Notes: generated from the sequence alone by a model not told the origin. Shown: positions 5,647 through 10,263, counted from the first letter of the stretch. The stretch is 10,263 nt of DNA from Chloroflexota bacterium (GCA_016200785.1 JACQED010000321.1:1-10263); one strand, 5' to 3'. Program-made: numbers and translations.

Positions 5647-6648
5647 ATGTTGCCCCTGGGCAAACTGCCTTCCGGCCTCTTGGCCGATCTGCTCTCGAAG
5701 CACGCCGCCGCCGATCCGCGCGTCGTCGTCGGGCCGGGCGTGGGCCTCGACTGCGCGGTGATGGATTTCGGCGACCGATATCTCGTCGCCAAGAGCGATC
5801 CGATCACATTCGCGACCGACGCCATCGGCTGGTACGCCGTGCAAGTGAACGCGAACGACATCGCCTGCTCGGGCGCGACGCCTCGTTTTTTCCTCGCCAC
5901 CATCCTCCTGCCGGAAAGCAAAGCCGATGCGGAAATGGCCGACACGATCTTCGCGCAAATCACGCGCGCCTGCGGCGAGATCGGCGCAAGCCACGTCGGC
6001 GGGCACACCGAAATCACGTATGGGATTGATCGACCGATTGTGATCGGGACGATGCTGGGGGATATCGAACGCGATCGGCTGATCACCGCGGGCGGCGCGG
6101 AAATTGGCGACGCAGTGATCGTGACGAAAGGCGTGCCGGTGGAGGCCACGGCGATCATCGCTCGCGAGAAAAGCGAAGCGCTGGCGGAAAAATTCTCGCC
6201 AGAGTTCCTTGCCGGCTGTCGCGACTTTCTTTATCAGCCGGGGATCAGCGTGGTGCGCGATGCGCGCATCGCCATCGGGGCCGGTCGGGTGACGGCGATG
6301 CACGACCCGACCGAGGGCGGCCTGGCCACCGGCCTGTGGGAACTGGCTGAGGCGTCGGGGCGCGGGATGGAAATCGAATTCGAGGCTGTGCCCATTTTGC
6401 CGGAAGGCCGCGCGCTGTGTGCGGCGTTCGGCCTCGACCCGATGGGAGCGATCGCCTCCGGTTCGCTCTTGCTCACCGCGCCGCCTCAGGAGGCTTCCAG
6501 GATTGTCGCCGCGCTCGCTGCGGAGAGAATCGCCGCGCACATCGTCGGGAGCGTAAGCGATTCTCCCGGCGTGCGAGTGCACGATCGTGACGGCGTCTCC
6601 CCCCTCCACCGCCCGGCGCGGGATGAGATTGCGCGACTGTTCGAATGA
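5647..6648 (+). CDS. AIR-synthase-related protein (PurM superfamily; HypE/ThiL/SelD-like ATP-dependent enzyme), specific function unknown
   Basis: 333-aa ORF. N-terminal PurM-like fold signatures GLDCAVMDF...VAKSDPITF (the DxAV motif), IGWYAVQVNANDIACSGATP, then a C-terminal AIRS_C-like half (RDARIAIGAGRVTAMHDPTEGGLATGLWELAEASG). It starts 11 nt after the DUF4956 gene, so is probably co-transcribed. Confidence 0.7.
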   Translation: MLPLGKLPSGLLADLLSKHAAADPRVVVGPGVGLDCAVMDFGDRYLVAKSDPITFATDAIGWYAVQVNANDIACSGATPRFFLATILLPESKADAEMADTIFAQITRACGEIGASHVGGHTEITYGIDRPIVIGTMLGDIERDRLITAGGAEIGDAVIVTKGVPVEATAIIAREKSEALAEKFSPEFLAGCRDFLYQPGISVVRDARIAIGAGRVTAMHDPTEGGLATGLWELAEASGRGMEIEFEAVPILPEGRALCAAFGLDPMGAIASGSLLLTAPPQEASRIVAALAAERIAAHIVGSVSDSPGVRVHDRDGVSPLHRPARDEIARLFE

Positions 6649-6708
6649 GGCAAGACGCGATGCGCGACGCGTTCTTCACACATCACGCCTCACGTTTCAC
6701 GTCCCGCC

Positions 6709-7782
6709 TCACCCAAACACAATCCCCAACTCTCTCGCCATTTGCACCGGCTCACCTTCGGGATCGACCCGCTTGGGCACAGCCAGCGCTTCGGTCAGCG
6801 GCACGTCAACGAGGCGCGTGCCGTGCAACGCGACCATGCAGCCGAAGTGATCGGCGGCCACGGCGCGCACCGCGCCCGCGCCGTAGCGCGTCGCCAGCCA
6901 GCGGTCGAAGGGACTCGGCACGCCACCGCGCTGAACGTGGCCGAGCACCGTGCATCGCGCTTCCATGCCGCAGTTCCGGCCCACCCAATCGGCCACCCGC
7001 TGCCCCATGCCGCCCAGCCGCTCCGCCGTGATTTGATCGCCGGCGCGCGCCAGCATCTGCGCGCCGCCGACAGGCCGCGCCCCCTCCGAGCAGGCGATGA
7101 TGCTGAACCTGCGCCCGCGCTGCGCCCGCTCCTCGACAGCCCGGCACACGACGTTAAGATCGAACGGAATCTCCGGGATGAGAATCACGTCCGCGCCGCC
7201 GGCCACCCCGGAGTGAAGCGCGATGAAGCCCGCGTCGCGTCCCATCAGTTCCACCACCATCACGCGGTGATGGGCCTCGGCCGTCGTGTGCAGTTTGTCA
7301 ATGGCCTCGGTCGCCGTGTGCAGAGCGGTGTCGAAGCCGAAGGTCACATCGGTGCCGCCGAGGTCGTTGTCAATCGTCTTGGGCACGCCGACGACGGGCA
7401 GGCCTTTCTGGCACAGTTCGAGCGCGATGCGCAGAGTCCCATCGCCGCCGACGGCGATCAGGGCATCGAGCCTCATCTGCTCGAAGCCGGCCATGAAGGC
7501 GTCGGACATATCCACGATGACTTCCTGGCCGTCCCTCATCACTTTGCGGCCAAACGGGTTGCCGCGATTGGCCGCGCCGAGGATCGTGCCGCCTCGCGAC
7601 AGAATGCCGCGAATGTCTTCAGCCGTCAGAACGCGCCAGCGGCCGTCGATGATGCCATCGTAGCCATCCATAATGCCGACCATTTCCCGGCCTTGATGAT
7701 CGGCGGTTTTGACAGCGGCCCGGATGACGGCATTCAATCCGGGCGCGTCGCCGCCGCCAGTGAGAATCCCGATCCGTTTCAT
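6709..7782 (-). CDS. pfkA: 6-phosphofructokinase (PFK-A family); phosphoryl donor (ATP vs PPi) not decidable from sequence alone
   Basis: 357-aa ORF. N-terminus MKRIGILTGGGDAPGLNAVIRAAV, then GGDGT, PKTIDNDL, MGR, and HVQRGG near the C-terminus. All are hallmark PFK motifs. The start overlaps the cyclase stop (ATGA). Confidence 0.9.
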   Translation of the reverse strand: MKRIGILTGGGDAPGLNAVIRAAVKTADHQGREMVGIMDGYDGIIDGRWRVLTAEDIRGILSRGGTILGAANRGNPFGRKVMRDGQEVIVDMSDAFMAGFEQMRLDALIAVGGDGTLRIALELCQKGLPVVGVPKTIDNDLGGTDVTFGFDTALHTATEAIDKLHTTAEAHHRVMVVELMGRDAGFIALHSGVAGGADVILIPEIPFDLNVVCRAVEERAQRGRRFSIIACSEGARPVGGAQMLARAGDQITAERLGGMGQRVADWVGRNCGMEARCTVLGHVQRGGVPSPFDRWLATRYGAGAVRAVAADHFGCMVALHGTRLVDVPLTEALAVPKRVDPEGEPVQMARELGIVFG

Positions 7783-10263
7783 CTGACGACCATCCTCTCG
7801 ACCCGGACGACTTCGTAAACGTGCTCGAGCGCGGTGCGGCCTTTCACGCGGAGAGGCTGCAAGGGCCGGGCCTCGACGAAATCGCCGACGTGCTGATAGG
7901 CCATCTCGTTCAGAAGGATCTGGCCGCCGGCGGCATTCTCCTGCAGTCGCTTGGCAAGATTGACTATGTCGCCGACCGCCGTGTAGTTGAAAAGCGCGGA
8001 AGTGCCAATGTTGCCGACAACCGCTTCGCCGACGGCAATGCCGATGCTGAAGTTGAGCGGGAACGTTTTTTCCAGAAGGTTGCGGTGAGGGCTGAGCGCG
8101 TCGCGCATGCGCACCGCCGCCCGGACGGCGTGCAGGGTGTGCGCGGCTTGGGGCAGAGGCGCGTTGAATATCGCCATGACCCCGTCGCCGAGGAACTTGT
8201 CGATCGTGCCGCCCTGCTCCAGCACAGCCTGCGCGGCGACGTCCAAAAAGGCGTTGAGGACGTCGATCAGCGCCTCGGGCGCGGTCTGCTCGGCGAAGGA
8301 AGTGAAGCCCCGCACGTCGGCGAACATGATGGTGATCTCCTGACGCCGGCCTCCGAGCTGCAAGTTGGCCGAGTCGGCCAGAAGAGTCTCGACGACGCCC
8401 GGTGGGACGACGCGCTCGAAGGTGCGCCGGATATGCTCGCGGTCGATCTCAAGCCGCCGTTGTTCGGTCACATCTTCGAGGACAAATGTGACTCCTGCCC
8501 CCTTCCCGTCGGCGCCGGGAAGTGGCGTGAGCGAAACGTTCAGATGAACCGTTCCGCGCAAGGGATAATTGATCGTGACTTCGTGGCCGGTCTCGCTGAC
8601 GCCGAACTTCCGCACTACCTCCGCCAGAGACAGAATCGACTCGCCCAGCGCAGACAAAACGACCTGCGCCGGCTGACCGACCAGCGCGATAGCCGGCAAG
8701 CCGAGAATGCGCTCGGCGGCCGGGTTGACGAGGCTGACTTTCCCGTCGGCCTCCGTCGTGACGACACCGGCGGCAATCGAGGCGAAGACGTTGTCTTGCA
8801 GCTGCTTCATCTCAAGAATCTGCGACAGGTGACGCCCGAGGCTGGTGAACAACTGCGCGTTGTCAACGGCCAGCGCGATTTGCCCGGCGAGGCCCATCAC
8901 GCGATCGAGCTCTTCGGGAGTGAACAGCCGCAGTCGCCGGCTCTCGCCGATCAACGCCGCGCCAATGGTGCGGCCGCGGGCGATCAGCGGAACGCCCAAC
9001 AAGGACTTGTCCGACAACCGCTCCGCGAAACGCGCACCGATAAAGGTTGAGCGGGACGCGTCCTCGATGATTGCCGGCTGGCCGGTCCGGATGACGTGCT
9101 CGGCCAGTGAAGGCTCGCCAGGCTCGGGTTGCAGGTTGGCAAAGCTTACAGTGGTCTCGCCGTACGACGCGGCCGGCAATACGGTTTGTCGCTCGGCATC
9201 CCACACCACCACCGCCGCTCCCGTCGCATCCACAATGGCCGCGAGGTACTTTGACACCGCAGGCAGAAGATCGTCGAGATTCATCGAGTCGGCCAGCGCG
9301 CGGCTCACTTCGGTTTGGAGGGTGAGGTTGCGCACGCGCTCTCGCTCGGCGGCGAAGAGGCGCGCGTTCTGCAGGGCAAGCGCCAGCGGTGTGGCTAACG
9401 CGATCAATAGCGGGTGGTGTTCGGGGGTGAACGCGCCTGTCGCGGAGGAGGTCAGGCTTAAGACGCCGACCAGCTCGGTGCCGGCCAACAGCGGCACGGC
9501 TGCCGACGATTTGACCCCTTGATCTATGTCTGGCACGTAACGCCACCGTTCGTCGAGGTCCACATCGGACGCGATGGCGATCCGGCGGTTGGCTGCCGAC
9601 CATCCGACAAGCCCCTCGCCGATCCGCAGGTGGGCTGCCCGGTCTATTTCTTCCAGTCGATCGCGCGCGACGCCGGTGGCGGCGATGAGTTCCAGCCGGT
9701 CACTCCCGGATTCGATGGTGAATACGGCGGCGTTCGCCAGCGACCCGGCGAACGCATCCAGCGCGCCGGTCACCAGGCGCAAGGCGTTCTCGGCCACGGC
9801 GCGCTGGTCGAGGTTGGCCGCAAGTTCCTGGCTGATCATGGACACGAGTTCCAGGCGGCCGCGCTCGCGCGCCACAGACTCGAACAACTGCGCGTTCTCG
9901 ACGGCAAGCGCGATGGCGTCGGCGATCTGCGCGAGGAGAGGCAGGTGTGCGGTGTCGAAACCTTCGGCATCGCGCCACTGCAAGTTCAACGCCCCGCTGA
10001 CACGCTCGCCGACAAGGAGCGGCACGCTCATGCGCGAGCGATAGCCGGCGGCATATACGGCCTGCTCGGCGGGCAAGCCCAACTCGGCGGCGATGTCGGG
10101 AGTGAGGTGCGGGCGACCGGCCAGCAGATCCAGCCCGGCGGACGTTGCCGTCACAGGCAAGCGGCGTCCCTTTTCCAAGCCGGGCAACCCGTTGTCAACG
10201 GCGGCGATGTGGAATGATGCGCCGCCGGGATCGAGCAAAGCCAGGCTGACGCGATCACAGCCG
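7779..10263 (-). CDS. Multidomain signalling protein: tandem GAF domains (at least 3) - PAS - class III adenylate/guanylate cyclase catalytic domain. 5' end lies outside the window.
   Basis: The ORF track starts it at a TTG (MLDPGG...), but the frame stays open to the window edge (upstream in frame ...GCDRVSLALLDPGG, no stop). There are three GAF-like repeats, each ending in an ALA(V/L)xNAxLF helix (IALAVENAQLF, LALALQNARLF, IALAVDNAQLF). A PAS-like segment follows (VFASIAAGVVTTEADGKVSLVNPAAERILGL...). The C-terminal cyclase motifs are ITIMFADVRGFTSFAE, FLGDGVMAIFNAP, IGIAVGEAVVGNIG and YTAVGDIVNLAKRLQ. Confidence 0.85.
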   Translation of the reverse strand, partial: GCDRVSLALLDPGGASFHIAAVDNGLPGLEKGRRLPVTATSAGLDLLAGRPHLTPDIAAELGLPAEQAVYAAGYRSRMSVPLLVGERVSGALNLQWRDAEGFDTAHLPLLAQIADAIALAVENAQLFESVARERGRLELVSMISQELAANLDQRAVAENALRLVTGALDAFAGSLANAAVFTIESGSDRLELIAATGVARDRLEEIDRAAHLRIGEGLVGWSAANRRIAIASDVDLDERWRYVPDIDQGVKSSAAVPLLAGTELVGVLSLTSSATGAFTPEHHPLLIALATPLALALQNARLFAAERERVRNLTLQTEVSRALADSMNLDDLLPAVSKYLAAIVDATGAAVVVWDAERQTVLPAASYGETTVSFANLQPEPGEPSLAEHVIRTGQPAIIEDASRSTFIGARFAERLSDKSLLGVPLIARGRTIGAALIGESRRLRLFTPEELDRVMGLAGQIALAVDNAQLFTSLGRHLSQILEMKQLQDNVFASIAAGVVTTEADGKVSLVNPAAERILGLPAIALVGQPAQVVLSALGESILSLAEVVRKFGVSETGHEVTINYPLRGTVHLNVSLTPLPGADGKGAGVTFVLEDVTEQRRLEIDREHIRRTFERVVPPGVVETLLADSANLQLGGRRQEITIMFADVRGFTSFAEQTAPEALIDVLNAFLDVAAQAVLEQGGTIDKFLGDGVMAIFNAPLPQAAHTLHAVRAAVRMRDALSPHRNLLEKTFPLNFSIGIAVGEAVVGNIGTSALFNYTAVGDIVNLAKRLQENAAGGQILLNEMAYQHVGDFVEARPLQPLRVKGRTALEHVYEVVRVERMVVR

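What the first reader, a model, noticed from the sequence alone, without database searches (positions are those of the whole stretch)
6709..10263. GAF x3 - PAS - class III nucleotide cyclase translationally coupled (ATGA) to 6-phosphofructokinase
A large sensory cyclase shares an overlapping stop/start with pfkA, implying one mRNA and coupled translation. cAMP/cGMP production would thus be genetically tied to the committed step of glycolysis. The cyclase carries three GAF domains, which are potential small-molecule or cyclic-nucleotide binding sites, plus a PAS domain. It may sense a glycolytic or redox metabolite. The cyclase catalytic motifs look intact (FADVRGF, GDGVMAIF, VNLAKRLQ), so it is probably active. 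ThpR, a phosphodiesterase for cyclic phosphates, lies about 3.7 kb away in a different operon, which is noted here but not claimed to be connected.
Basis: partly seen in the sequence, partly recalled or inferred. Interest (0 to 1): 0.5.

Follow-up and report, generated by a model that had tools for sequence, protein, structure and literature searches.

The report
Sensor adenylyl cyclase overlapping phosphofructokinase gene
A multi-GAF, PAS-regulated adenylyl cyclase gene does overlap the start of a phosphofructokinase gene by four bases, but no relative shares this arrangement and such overlaps are routine on this contig, so it is most likely a chance juxtaposition and not a wired link between cAMP and glycolysis.

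Summary
On the minus strand, an ORF that runs off the contig end (7779 to beyond 10263; 827 aa seen) encodes three GAF domains (the first cut off), PAS, a transducer-like linker and a class III cyclase domain. It overlaps a 357-aa 6-phosphofructokinase gene (6709-7782) by ATGA. All six canonical cyclase residues are present. The Lys689/Thr761 pair marks a class IIIb adenylyl, not guanylyl, cyclase. The GAF domains lack the NKFDE motif of cNMP-binding GAFs.

The functional reading is not supported. The window is a whole 10,263-bp Chloroflexi MAG contig, so no upstream sequence exists. The closest PFK relative (83%, syntenic downstream) has a tRNA-Glu and a 200-bp intergenic region upstream. The 75% relative has an MFS transporter gene overlapping pfk by 4 bp. 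The two 71% relatives have arginase and a hypothetical gene. None of 80 genome PFK loci has an adjacent cyclase, and none of 84 cyclase-family loci has a PFK. The five closest cyclase-relative loci (four independent contexts) carry a GT2 glycosyltransferase downstream instead. Two other ATGA overlaps join unrelated genes on this contig. Co-transcription here is likely, but the pairing is lineage-specific. Verdict: an ordinary new member of a known kind, low interest.

The parts
7779..10263 (-). Partial gene for a multi-GAF-PAS-class IIIb adenylyl cyclase. It runs off the contig end, 827 aa are seen, and the stop TGA is at 7779-7781.
   Evidence: There is no stop in 828 codons. Pfam domains are listed. 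The identical protein P0001 is annotated 'GAF domain-containing protein, partial [Chloroflexi bacterium]' on a 10263-bp contig.
9888..10262 (-). GAF-A (aa 1 to about 125), truncated at the N-terminus by the contig end.
   Evidence: It is one of three GAF_2/GAF_3/GAF stretches. NCBIfam partial matches cover aa 75-155.
9369..9782 (-). GAF-B (aa 161-298).
   Evidence: This is the best stretch of the PF13185 GAF_2 match. No NKFDE motif is present.
8859..9281 (-). GAF-C (aa 328-468), the GAF proximal to the PAS domain.
   Evidence: This is the best stretch for PF13492/PF01590. The best PDB match is 3eea, a GAF/HD protein. It aligns with, but is divergent from, the single GAF of the 575-aa family.
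8454..8789 (-). PAS domain (aa 492-603).
   Evidence: PF08448, PF00989 and PF13426 all score above their cutoffs.
8376..8441 (-). Cyclase-transducer-element-like linker (aa 608-629, REHIRRTFERVVPPGVVETLLA).
   Evidence: It aligns with the segment of Cya2 in 6fht that precedes the catalytic core (RVRNTFGRYLTDQVVATLLE). The CTE and its FGRY motif are described in PMC5995499.
7824..8345 (-). Class III cyclase catalytic domain (aa 640-813). Key residues are metal-binding Asp649 and Asp693, substrate-specifying Lys689 and Thr761, and transition-state Asn768 and Arg772.
   Evidence: PF00211 scores 71.6 bits. Alignments to Cya2 (2w01), CyaB (3r5g) and CyaC (1wc0/1wc1) are. All six residues are invariant in 34 family members.
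7779..7782 (-). ATGA stop/start overlap between the cyclase and pfk.
   Evidence: Read directly from the sequence.
7793..7799 (-). Shine-Dalgarno-like GAGAGGA inside the cyclase 3' end, 10 nt upstream of the pfk ATG.
   Evidence: Read directly from the sequence. The interpretation as a ribosome-binding site is inferred.
6709..7782 (-). 6-phosphofructokinase, 357 aa, of the 'mixed' clade. It has GGDG (Gly104 type) and PKTIDND (Lys124 type).
   Evidence: PF00365 scores 345.9 bits and TIGR02483 scores 431.5 bits. All PDB relatives are ATP-dependent PFKs.
5647..6648 (+). AIR-synthase-family gene convergent with pfk. It marks the end of the cyclase-pfk transcription unit and is the conserved syntenic neighbour of pfk.
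   Evidence: PF00586 and PF02769 match. The same convergent neighbour is present in L165, with 74% nucleotide identity across pfk plus this gene.

Best explanation
The locus holds two ordinary genes that sit next to each other only in this lineage. The upstream gene encodes a cytoplasmic sensor adenylyl cyclase. It has at least three GAF domains, a PAS domain, a helical transducer-like linker and a class IIIb catalytic domain with all six canonical residues. By analogy with other class III cyclases, it should act as a homodimer that makes cAMP from ATP. Its activity would be set by unknown ligands on the GAF/PAS modules and relayed through the linker. It is a divergent, multi-GAF member of a very large Anaerolineae family of roughly 575-aa GAF-PAS-cyclases. 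The downstream gene encodes a catalytically complete, probably ATP-dependent 6-phosphofructokinase. The genes overlap by ATGA, there is no terminator or promoter-like signal between them, and pfk is followed by a convergent gene. In this organism they are therefore probably co-transcribed, and pfk may be translated partly by re-initiation and partly through its own Shine-Dalgarno-like site. The pairing itself is a recent rearrangement just upstream of the pfk start codon, not a conserved regulatory module. It gives no evidence that cAMP signalling is functionally tied to glycolysis. Shown here: the domains, the residues, the overlap and the lack of conservation. Inferred: dimeric adenylyl cyclase activity, co-transcription and ATP dependence.
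For: The catalytic residues Asp649, Lys689, Asp693, Thr761, Asn768 and Arg772 align to Cya2, CyaB and CyaC and are invariant in the family alignment. A single Glu-to-Lys exchange at the Lys689-equivalent position converts Cya2 from a guanylyl to an adenylyl cyclase (PMC5995499). The Thr at the second specificity position is the hallmark of sAC-like class IIIb enzymes (PMC3383692). More than 2000 relatives exist, and the best share 46-54% identity over PAS plus the catalytic domain. For the junction: L165 (PFK 83% identical, with the same convergent AIRS gene and LigT nearby) has tRNA-Glu(CTC) at 1-74, then 200 bp of non-coding DNA with AGGAGG, then pfk. Nucleotide similarity to the window starts exactly at the pfk ATG. 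The 75% relative has an MFS gene overlapping pfk by 4 bp. The two 71% relatives have arginase and a hypothetical gene upstream. L001, L003 and L004 (62-66%) have divergent DUF2085/DUF4126 membrane genes. No adjacent cyclase was found in 80 genome loci, and no PFK was found in 84 cyclase loci. The five most similar cyclase loci (L081-L085, four independent contexts) carry a GT2 gene downstream. Two further ATGA overlaps join unrelated genes on the same contig: thpR with a CDF-HflK fusion, and that fusion with a DUF6174-like gene. No minus-strand promoter-like site and no terminator above chance lies in 6500-10263.
Against: Only one contig of this organism exists, so no close relative (above 83% PFK identity) could be checked. 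A very recent but functional association cannot be excluded. One other Anaerolineaceae MAG (L002) has a different second-messenger enzyme, PASx3-GGDEF-EAL, 50 bp upstream of pfk on the same strand. This could hint at a recurring sensor-pfk theme. An Arg found four residues before the specificity Thr in Cya2, CyaB and CyaC is Leu757 here and Gln in the family consensus, so full activity is not guaranteed. The promoter scan uses an E. coli-type consensus that may not fit Chloroflexota.
Confidence: 0.8

Rival explanations
1. The pairing is a genuine functional module. The sensor cyclase and PFK are co-expressed on purpose, for example with the GAF/PAS modules sensing a sugar phosphate, energy or redox signal, so that cAMP output and glycolytic capacity rise together.
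For: The ATGA overlap and SD-like site are compatible with translational coupling. No internal promoter or terminator was detected. A second Anaerolineaceae MAG has a PAS-GGDEF-EAL gene directly upstream of pfk.
Against: There is no conservation in either direction. Equally tight overlaps join unrelated genes on this contig and join MFS to pfk in a relative. No cAMP effector gene (CRP/CAP or cNMP-binding) was seen in the window. Overlapping pairs are common in prokaryotes generally (PMC6728339).
Confidence: 0.1
2. The cyclase is a catalytically weak or inactive pseudo-cyclase that acts only as a scaffold or sensor.
For: Leu757 replaces an Arg that is conserved in the three closest solved cyclases, and the family consensus has Gln there.
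Against: All six canonical catalytic and specificity residues are present and invariant across 34 family members, which implies selection for catalysis. PF00211 scores well above its threshold.
Confidence: 0.06
3. The junction is an assembly chimera of the metagenome-assembled contig, and the two genes are not neighbours in the real genome.
For: The arrangement is seen on one contig only. Similarity to the closest relative stops exactly at the pfk start codon.
Against: Both ORFs are intact and joined in a canonical ATGA overlap with a plausible SD. GC content is uniform, 0.62-0.68, across the junction. Both genes have their closest relatives in Anaerolineae/Anaerolineales. No repeat that could mislead an assembler was noticed at the junction, but no repeat search was run.
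Confidence: 0.04

Closest known systems
Anabaena/Nostoc CyaB1 and CyaB2 (GAF-GAF-PAS-class IIIb adenylyl cyclase, a cAMP self-activating switch)
   Same: Both have tandem GAF domains followed by PAS and a C-terminal class III catalytic domain. GAF signals are relayed through helices to PAS and the cyclase (PMC4411481). Both have the Lys/Thr specificity pair.
   Different: The GAFs here have no NKFDE motif and not even an NK dipeptide. They do not match cNMP-binding GAF structures at E<=0.01 apart from one weak hit (5w10, E=0.007). At least three GAFs are present here, against two in CyaB1/CyaB2. cAMP autoactivation is therefore not expected.
Anaerolineae roughly 575-aa coiled-coil-GAF-PAS-cyclase family (P0121-P0240; uncharacterised metagenomic proteins)
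   Same: They share 46-54% identity over PAS plus the catalytic domain, the same linker, the same six catalytic residues, and the same absence of the Arg four residues before the specificity Thr.
   Different: Family members have one well-conserved GAF and an N-terminal coiled coil. The window protein has at least three GAFs, and its proximal GAF is divergent. The closest family members are followed by a GT2 glycosyltransferase, not by PFK.
Solved class IIIb and related catalytic domains: Synechocystis Cya2 (2w01/6fht), P. aeruginosa CyaB (3r5g), Spirulina CyaC (1wc0)
   Same: These are the best PDB sequence matches (E from 6e-33 to 1e-22). They share the metal-binding Asp pair, the Asn/Arg transition-state pair and a CTE-like N-terminal helix. 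CyaB and CyaC also share the Lys/Thr pair.
   Different: Cya2 is a guanylyl cyclase with Glu at the Lys689 position. The three enzymes have different sensor modules (CHASE2, MASE2 and others). Their Arg four residues before the specificity position is Leu here.
Bacterial PFK of the TIGR02483 'PFK_mixed' clade
   Same: The match is full-length and scores just above the curated cutoff. The catalytic motifs GGDG, TIDND, MGR and GHVQRGG are present.
   Different: It combines Gly at position 104 with Lys at position 124. Asp104 plus Lys124 is the pair associated with PPi dependence (PMC3608648). The phosphoryl donor is therefore predicted to be ATP but is unproven.

Membership tests
Class III nucleotidyl cyclase (PF00211) | Profile match above the curated threshold | tested here: met
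   PF00211 scores 71.6 bits against a cutoff of 21.9, covering aa 640-813.
Class III nucleotidyl cyclase (PF00211) | Two metal-binding Asp and the transition-state Asn/Arg pair | tested here: met
   Asp649, Asp693, Asn768 and Arg772 align to Cya2, CyaB and CyaC and are invariant in 34 relatives.
Class III nucleotidyl cyclase (PF00211) | Dimeric enzyme that forms cAMP or cGMP | not testable with these tools
   This needs purified protein and an activity assay.
Adenylyl (versus guanylyl) cyclase, subclass IIIb | Substrate-specifying Lys, with Thr in place of the class IIIa Asp | tested here: met
   Lys689 lies in IDKFLGDG and Thr761 in NYTAVG. The roles of these positions come from PMC5995499 and PMC3383692.
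Adenylyl (versus guanylyl) cyclase, subclass IIIb | Stimulation by bicarbonate or CO2 | not testable with these tools
   The Thr is only described as 'thought to be predictive' (PMC3383692).
CyaB1/CyaB2-type cAMP-autoactivated cyclase | Domain order: tandem GAF, PAS, cyclase | tested here: met
CyaB1/CyaB2-type cAMP-autoactivated cyclase | NKFDE motif of cNMP-binding GAF domains | tested here: not met
   A regex search found no NKFDE-like pattern and no NK dipeptide in 827 aa. The motif definition is from PMC4411481.
CyaB1/CyaB2-type cAMP-autoactivated cyclase | Sequence similarity of the GAFs to solved cNMP-binding GAFs | tested here: not met
   1YKD, 1MC0 and PDE5 are not among the hits at E<=0.01. 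The only related hit is weak (5w10, E=0.007).
Anaerolineae roughly 575-aa GAF-PAS-cyclase family | Full-length similarity over PAS, linker and catalytic domain | tested here: met
   Identity is 46-54% over 97% of the query, with E values down to 1e-104. The alignment is A1.
Anaerolineae roughly 575-aa GAF-PAS-cyclase family | Single GAF preceded by a coiled coil, about 575 aa in total | tested here: not met
   The window protein has at least three GAFs and at least 827 aa.
6-phosphofructokinase (PF00365 / TIGR02483) | Profile matches above the curated thresholds, with catalytic motifs present | tested here: met
   PF00365 scores 345.9 bits and TIGR02483 scores 431.5 bits against a cutoff of 430.55. 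The motifs are visible.
6-phosphofructokinase (PF00365 / TIGR02483) | Phosphoryl donor residues: Gly104+Gly124 for ATP, Asp104+Lys124 for PPi | tested here: inconclusive
   The protein has GGDG (Gly104) but PKTIDND (Lys124). The Asp104+Lys124 rule is from PMC3608648. The Gly104+Gly124 ATP pair and the mapping to E. coli numbering rest on my own knowledge of the PfkA sequence.
Translationally coupled operon pair | Overlapping stop and start codons with an SD inside the upstream gene | tested here: met
   ATGA lies at 7779-7782 and GAGAGGA at 7793-7799.
Translationally coupled operon pair | Gene pair conserved in related genomes | tested here: not met
Translationally coupled operon pair | Single transcript, with downstream translation dependent on upstream translation | not testable with these tools
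   This needs RNA-seq, RT-PCR and reporter constructs.

The most novel reading that the evidence does not exclude
In some Anaerolineae, pfk may have been repeatedly captured behind genes for nucleotide second-messenger sensor enzymes: a multi-GAF-PAS adenylyl cyclase here and a PASx3-GGDEF-EAL protein in L002. PFK synthesis would then be slaved to expression of a metabolic or redox sensor, giving a lineage-specific link between second-messenger signalling and the committed step of glycolysis.
Probability: 0.06. Interest if true: 0.5.

Novelty: new member of a known kind. Interest (0 to 1): 0.15.

Why it matters
If the link were real, it would be a rare bacterial case of cAMP signalling tied at operon level to glycolytic flux. 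The evidence instead shows a routine gene overlap in a compact, high-GC genome. This is a useful caution that ATGA overlaps alone do not indicate functional coupling. The practical gains are modest. The cyclase can be annotated as a class IIIb adenylyl cyclase with GAFs not of the cNMP-binding type. A large, uncharacterised Anaerolineae GAF-PAS-cyclase family is identified, and the members closest to this cyclase are paired with a processive-type GT2 glycosyltransferase. That pairing is the more promising lead.

Tried and rejected
1. An exact-sequence look-up of the PFK returned nothing, although the protein is in the homologue database (P0241). Upstream sequence cannot be obtained because the window is the entire contig.
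2. The full-length cyclase homologue search was swamped by multi-GAF kinases and phosphatases and missed the true cyclase family. Searching PAS plus the catalytic domain alone fixed this.
3. I considered that Leu757 replaces the bicarbonate-switch Arg176 of human sAC. I rejected this. From my recollection of the sAC sequence, Arg176 lies in the region equivalent to VNLAKR in the degenerate site, not four residues before the specificity position. The role of Arg176 is described in PMC12250328. The meaning of Leu757 stays open.
4. The sigma-70 promoter and terminator scan of 6500-10263 found nothing on the minus strand above chance. The same scan of the L165 upstream region also found nothing, so the scan is uninformative about promoters in this phylum.
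5. A search for other GGDEF-EAL or cyclase genes next to pfk in the 80 genome loci found only L002 directly upstream. L016 has a cyclase-domain hit 3.9 kb away, and L005 has a convergent GGDEF gene. There is no pattern.
6. A literature search for a cyclase-PFK operon in Chloroflexi gave no papers.
7. No structure prediction was run, because no open question here depended on a fold.
Full report
**Observation**

The window is a high-GC sequence (0.59-0.70). It turns out to be an entire 10,263-bp contig of a Chloroflexi metagenome-assembled genome. The identical cyclase and PFK proteins are on record once each, on a contig of exactly that length (P0001; P0241).

- On the minus strand, an ORF runs from the window end to a TGA at 7779-7781 without a stop in 828 codons. 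Its N-terminus is missing and cannot be recovered.
- Pfam finds three GAF stretches (the first cut by the contig end), a PAS domain (aa 492-603) and a class III cyclase domain (aa 640-813; 71.6 bits against a cutoff of 21.9).
- The next ORF, 6709-7782, is a full-length 6-phosphofructokinase. PF00365 scores 345.9 bits. TIGR02483 'PFK_mixed' scores 431.5 bits against a cutoff of 430.55.
- The junction reads GTC GTC AGA TGA / ATG AAA CGG. This is an ATGA overlap at 7779-7782, with GAGAGGA 10 nt upstream of the ATG.

**The cyclase**

The catalytic domain's best solved relatives are Synechocystis Cya2 (2w01, and the 6fht chimera), P. aeruginosa CyaB (3r5g) and Spirulina CyaC (1wc0/1wc1).

- In those alignments the two metal-binding aspartates (Asp649 in FADVRGF, Asp693 in GDG) and the transition-state pair (Asn768 and Arg772 in VNLAKR) are all present.
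- The specificity positions are Lys689 (IDKF) and Thr761 (NYTAVG).
- Lys at the first position is what turns the guanylyl cyclase Cya2 into an adenylyl cyclase (E488K; PMC5995499).
- Thr at the second position is the signature of sAC-like class IIIb enzymes (PMC3383692).
- The 22 residues before the core (REHIRRTFERVVPPGVVETLLA) align with the cyclase transducer element region of Cya2.

The most likely mechanism is a homodimeric adenylyl cyclase whose activity is set by the GAF/PAS modules through a helical linker. This is inferred from the family, not shown here.

One caveat remains. An Arg found four residues before the specificity position in Cya2, CyaB and CyaC is Leu757 here.

The GAFs are not of the cyclic-nucleotide-binding type by the usual criterion. 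There is no NKFDE-like pattern and no NK dipeptide (motif from PMC4411481). Their best structural relatives by sequence are a GAF/HD protein and PtsP GAFs. The CyaB1-style cAMP self-activation suggested by the architecture is therefore not expected.

**Relatives of the cyclase**

A search with the whole 827 aa returned only multi-GAF kinases and phosphatases at about 30% identity. A search with PAS plus the catalytic domain alone found more than 2000 relatives.

- The best are a very large set of roughly 575-aa Anaerolineae/Chloroflexi proteins with a coiled coil, one GAF, PAS and a cyclase domain. They share 46-54% identity over 97% of the query.
- In a 34-sequence alignment, all six canonical residues are invariant. 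The family consensus has Gln where the window has Leu757.
- The window protein is therefore a divergent member of this family with extra GAF domains.

**The PFK**

The motifs GGDG, PKTIDND, MGR and GHVQRGG are present. All solved relatives are ATP-dependent enzymes.

In E. coli numbering (my mapping) the protein has Gly104 but Lys124. The Asp104+Lys124 pair is the one associated with PPi dependence (PMC3608648). ATP dependence is likely but unproven.

**Is the pairing conserved?** No, in either direction.

*(a) Genome PFK loci.*
- Of 80 PFK loci from GTDB species genomes (best 62-66% identity, Anaerolineales), none has a cyclase next to pfk. One Bacteroidales locus has a weak cyclase-domain hit 3.9 kb away.
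- In L001, L003 and L004, the upstream neighbours are divergently oriented DUF2085/DUF4126 membrane genes.

*(b) Closer PFKs from metagenomes.*
- The 83% relative (L165) keeps the window's downstream synteny: a convergent AIRS-family gene and LigT nearby, with 74% nucleotide identity over pfk plus AIRS.
- Upstream of pfk, L165 has tRNA-Glu(CTC), about 200 bp of non-coding DNA and its own AGGAGG.
- Nucleotide similarity to the window begins exactly at the pfk ATG.
- The 75% relative has an MFS transporter gene overlapping pfk by 4 bp.
- The two 71% relatives have arginase or a hypothetical gene upstream.

*(c) Cyclase-family loci.*
- Of 84 loci carrying cyclase-family members, none contains a PFK.
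- The five loci most similar to the window's cyclase (L081-L085, four independent contexts) have a roughly 500-aa GT2 glycosyltransferase directly downstream.

**Is the overlap itself informative?** Hardly.

- About 15% of gene pairs in most prokaryotic groups are co-directional and overlapping (PMC6728339).
- On this contig, ATGA overlaps also join thpR to a CDF-HflK fusion gene, and that gene to a DUF6174-like gene. A possible TTGA overlap joins an alpha/beta hydrolase gene to thpR.
- A relative's pfk is overlapped in the same way by an MFS gene.
- The cyclase C-terminus runs about six residues past the usual family end before reaching the TGA inside the pfk start. This is what a fortuitous read-through after a rearrangement would look like.

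Co-transcription in this organism remains the parsimonious reading. There is no gap, no minus-strand promoter-like site and no terminator above chance, and a convergent gene follows pfk. The promoter scan is weak evidence in this phylum, however.

**Rivals**

- A genuine cAMP-glycolysis module cannot be excluded for this one organism. Its only positive hint beyond the overlap is L002, where a PASx3-GGDEF-EAL gene ends 50 bp before pfk. A scan of the other loci found no further cases.
- A pseudo-cyclase is unlikely, given the invariant catalytic residues.
- An assembly chimera is unlikely, given intact ORFs, uniform GC content and concordant taxonomy on both sides. Read mapping would settle it.

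**Verdict**

The annotation is refined to a class IIIb adenylyl cyclase with GAFs not of the cNMP-binding type, plus a probably ATP-dependent PFK. The proposed functional tie is not supported. This is a new member of known kinds in an incidental arrangement, and interest is low (0.15).

Noticed in passing
L081:5001-8302, L082:5001-8277, L083:5001-8357, L085 (about 6000-8814), L094 (about 4484-7479): The roughly 575-aa Anaerolineae GAF-PAS-class IIIb cyclases closest to the window's cyclase are each followed on the same strand, after a gap of 35-130 bp, by a roughly 500-aa GT2 glycosyltransferase. Its best partial matches are to cellulose synthase CelA/BcsA and to PgaC. The other flanking genes differ between loci. 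This is a conserved cyclase plus processive-type GT2 pair that might link cAMP to exopolysaccharide synthesis. More distant family members lack it.
   Followed up: partly
window 1897-3438 (-), with 1343-1900 (-) and 319-1230 (-): A single 513-aa ORF fuses a cation-diffusion-facilitator transmembrane domain (aa 8-198) to HflK (TIGR01933, 230 bits, aa 238-489). It is followed by a weakly DUF6174-like gene and by HflC. This is an unusual CDF-HflK fusion inside an hflKC-like cluster.
   Followed up: no
L002:1696-4629 (+), with pfk at 4679-5755: In an uncultured Anaerolineaceae MAG (PFK 63% identical), a 977-aa PASx3-GGDEF-EAL gene ends 50 bp upstream of pfk on the same strand. It is a second, different second-messenger enzyme next to pfk. 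No further cases were found among the 80 loci.
   Followed up: partly
L165:1-274: In the closest relative, a tRNA-Glu(CTC) gene lies 200 bp upstream of pfk. Similarity to the window ends exactly at the pfk start codon. The rearrangement breakpoint therefore lies in a tRNA-proximal intergenic region.
   Followed up: yes
window 7990-7992 (Leu757 codon, minus strand); alignment A1, around column 567: The Arg found four residues before the specificity residue in Cya2, CyaB and CyaC is Leu in the window protein. It is Gln in nearly all of the 33 family members aligned. This is a family-wide departure of unknown consequence.
   Followed up: partly
tool behaviour: The full-length homologue search missed a family scoring 368 bits to the C-terminal half, because the candidates were swamped by multi-GAF proteins. 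The PAS-catalytic-domain search did not list the query's own protein (P0001). The exact look-up of the PFK found nothing although P0241 is in the database.
   Followed up: no
window 5647-6648 (+): This AIR-synthase-family protein scores below the cutoff for every named equivalog (HypE 104, ThiL 95 and SelD 80 bits). It is nevertheless the conserved convergent neighbour of pfk in L165 and lies near pfk in the 75% relative.
   Followed up: no
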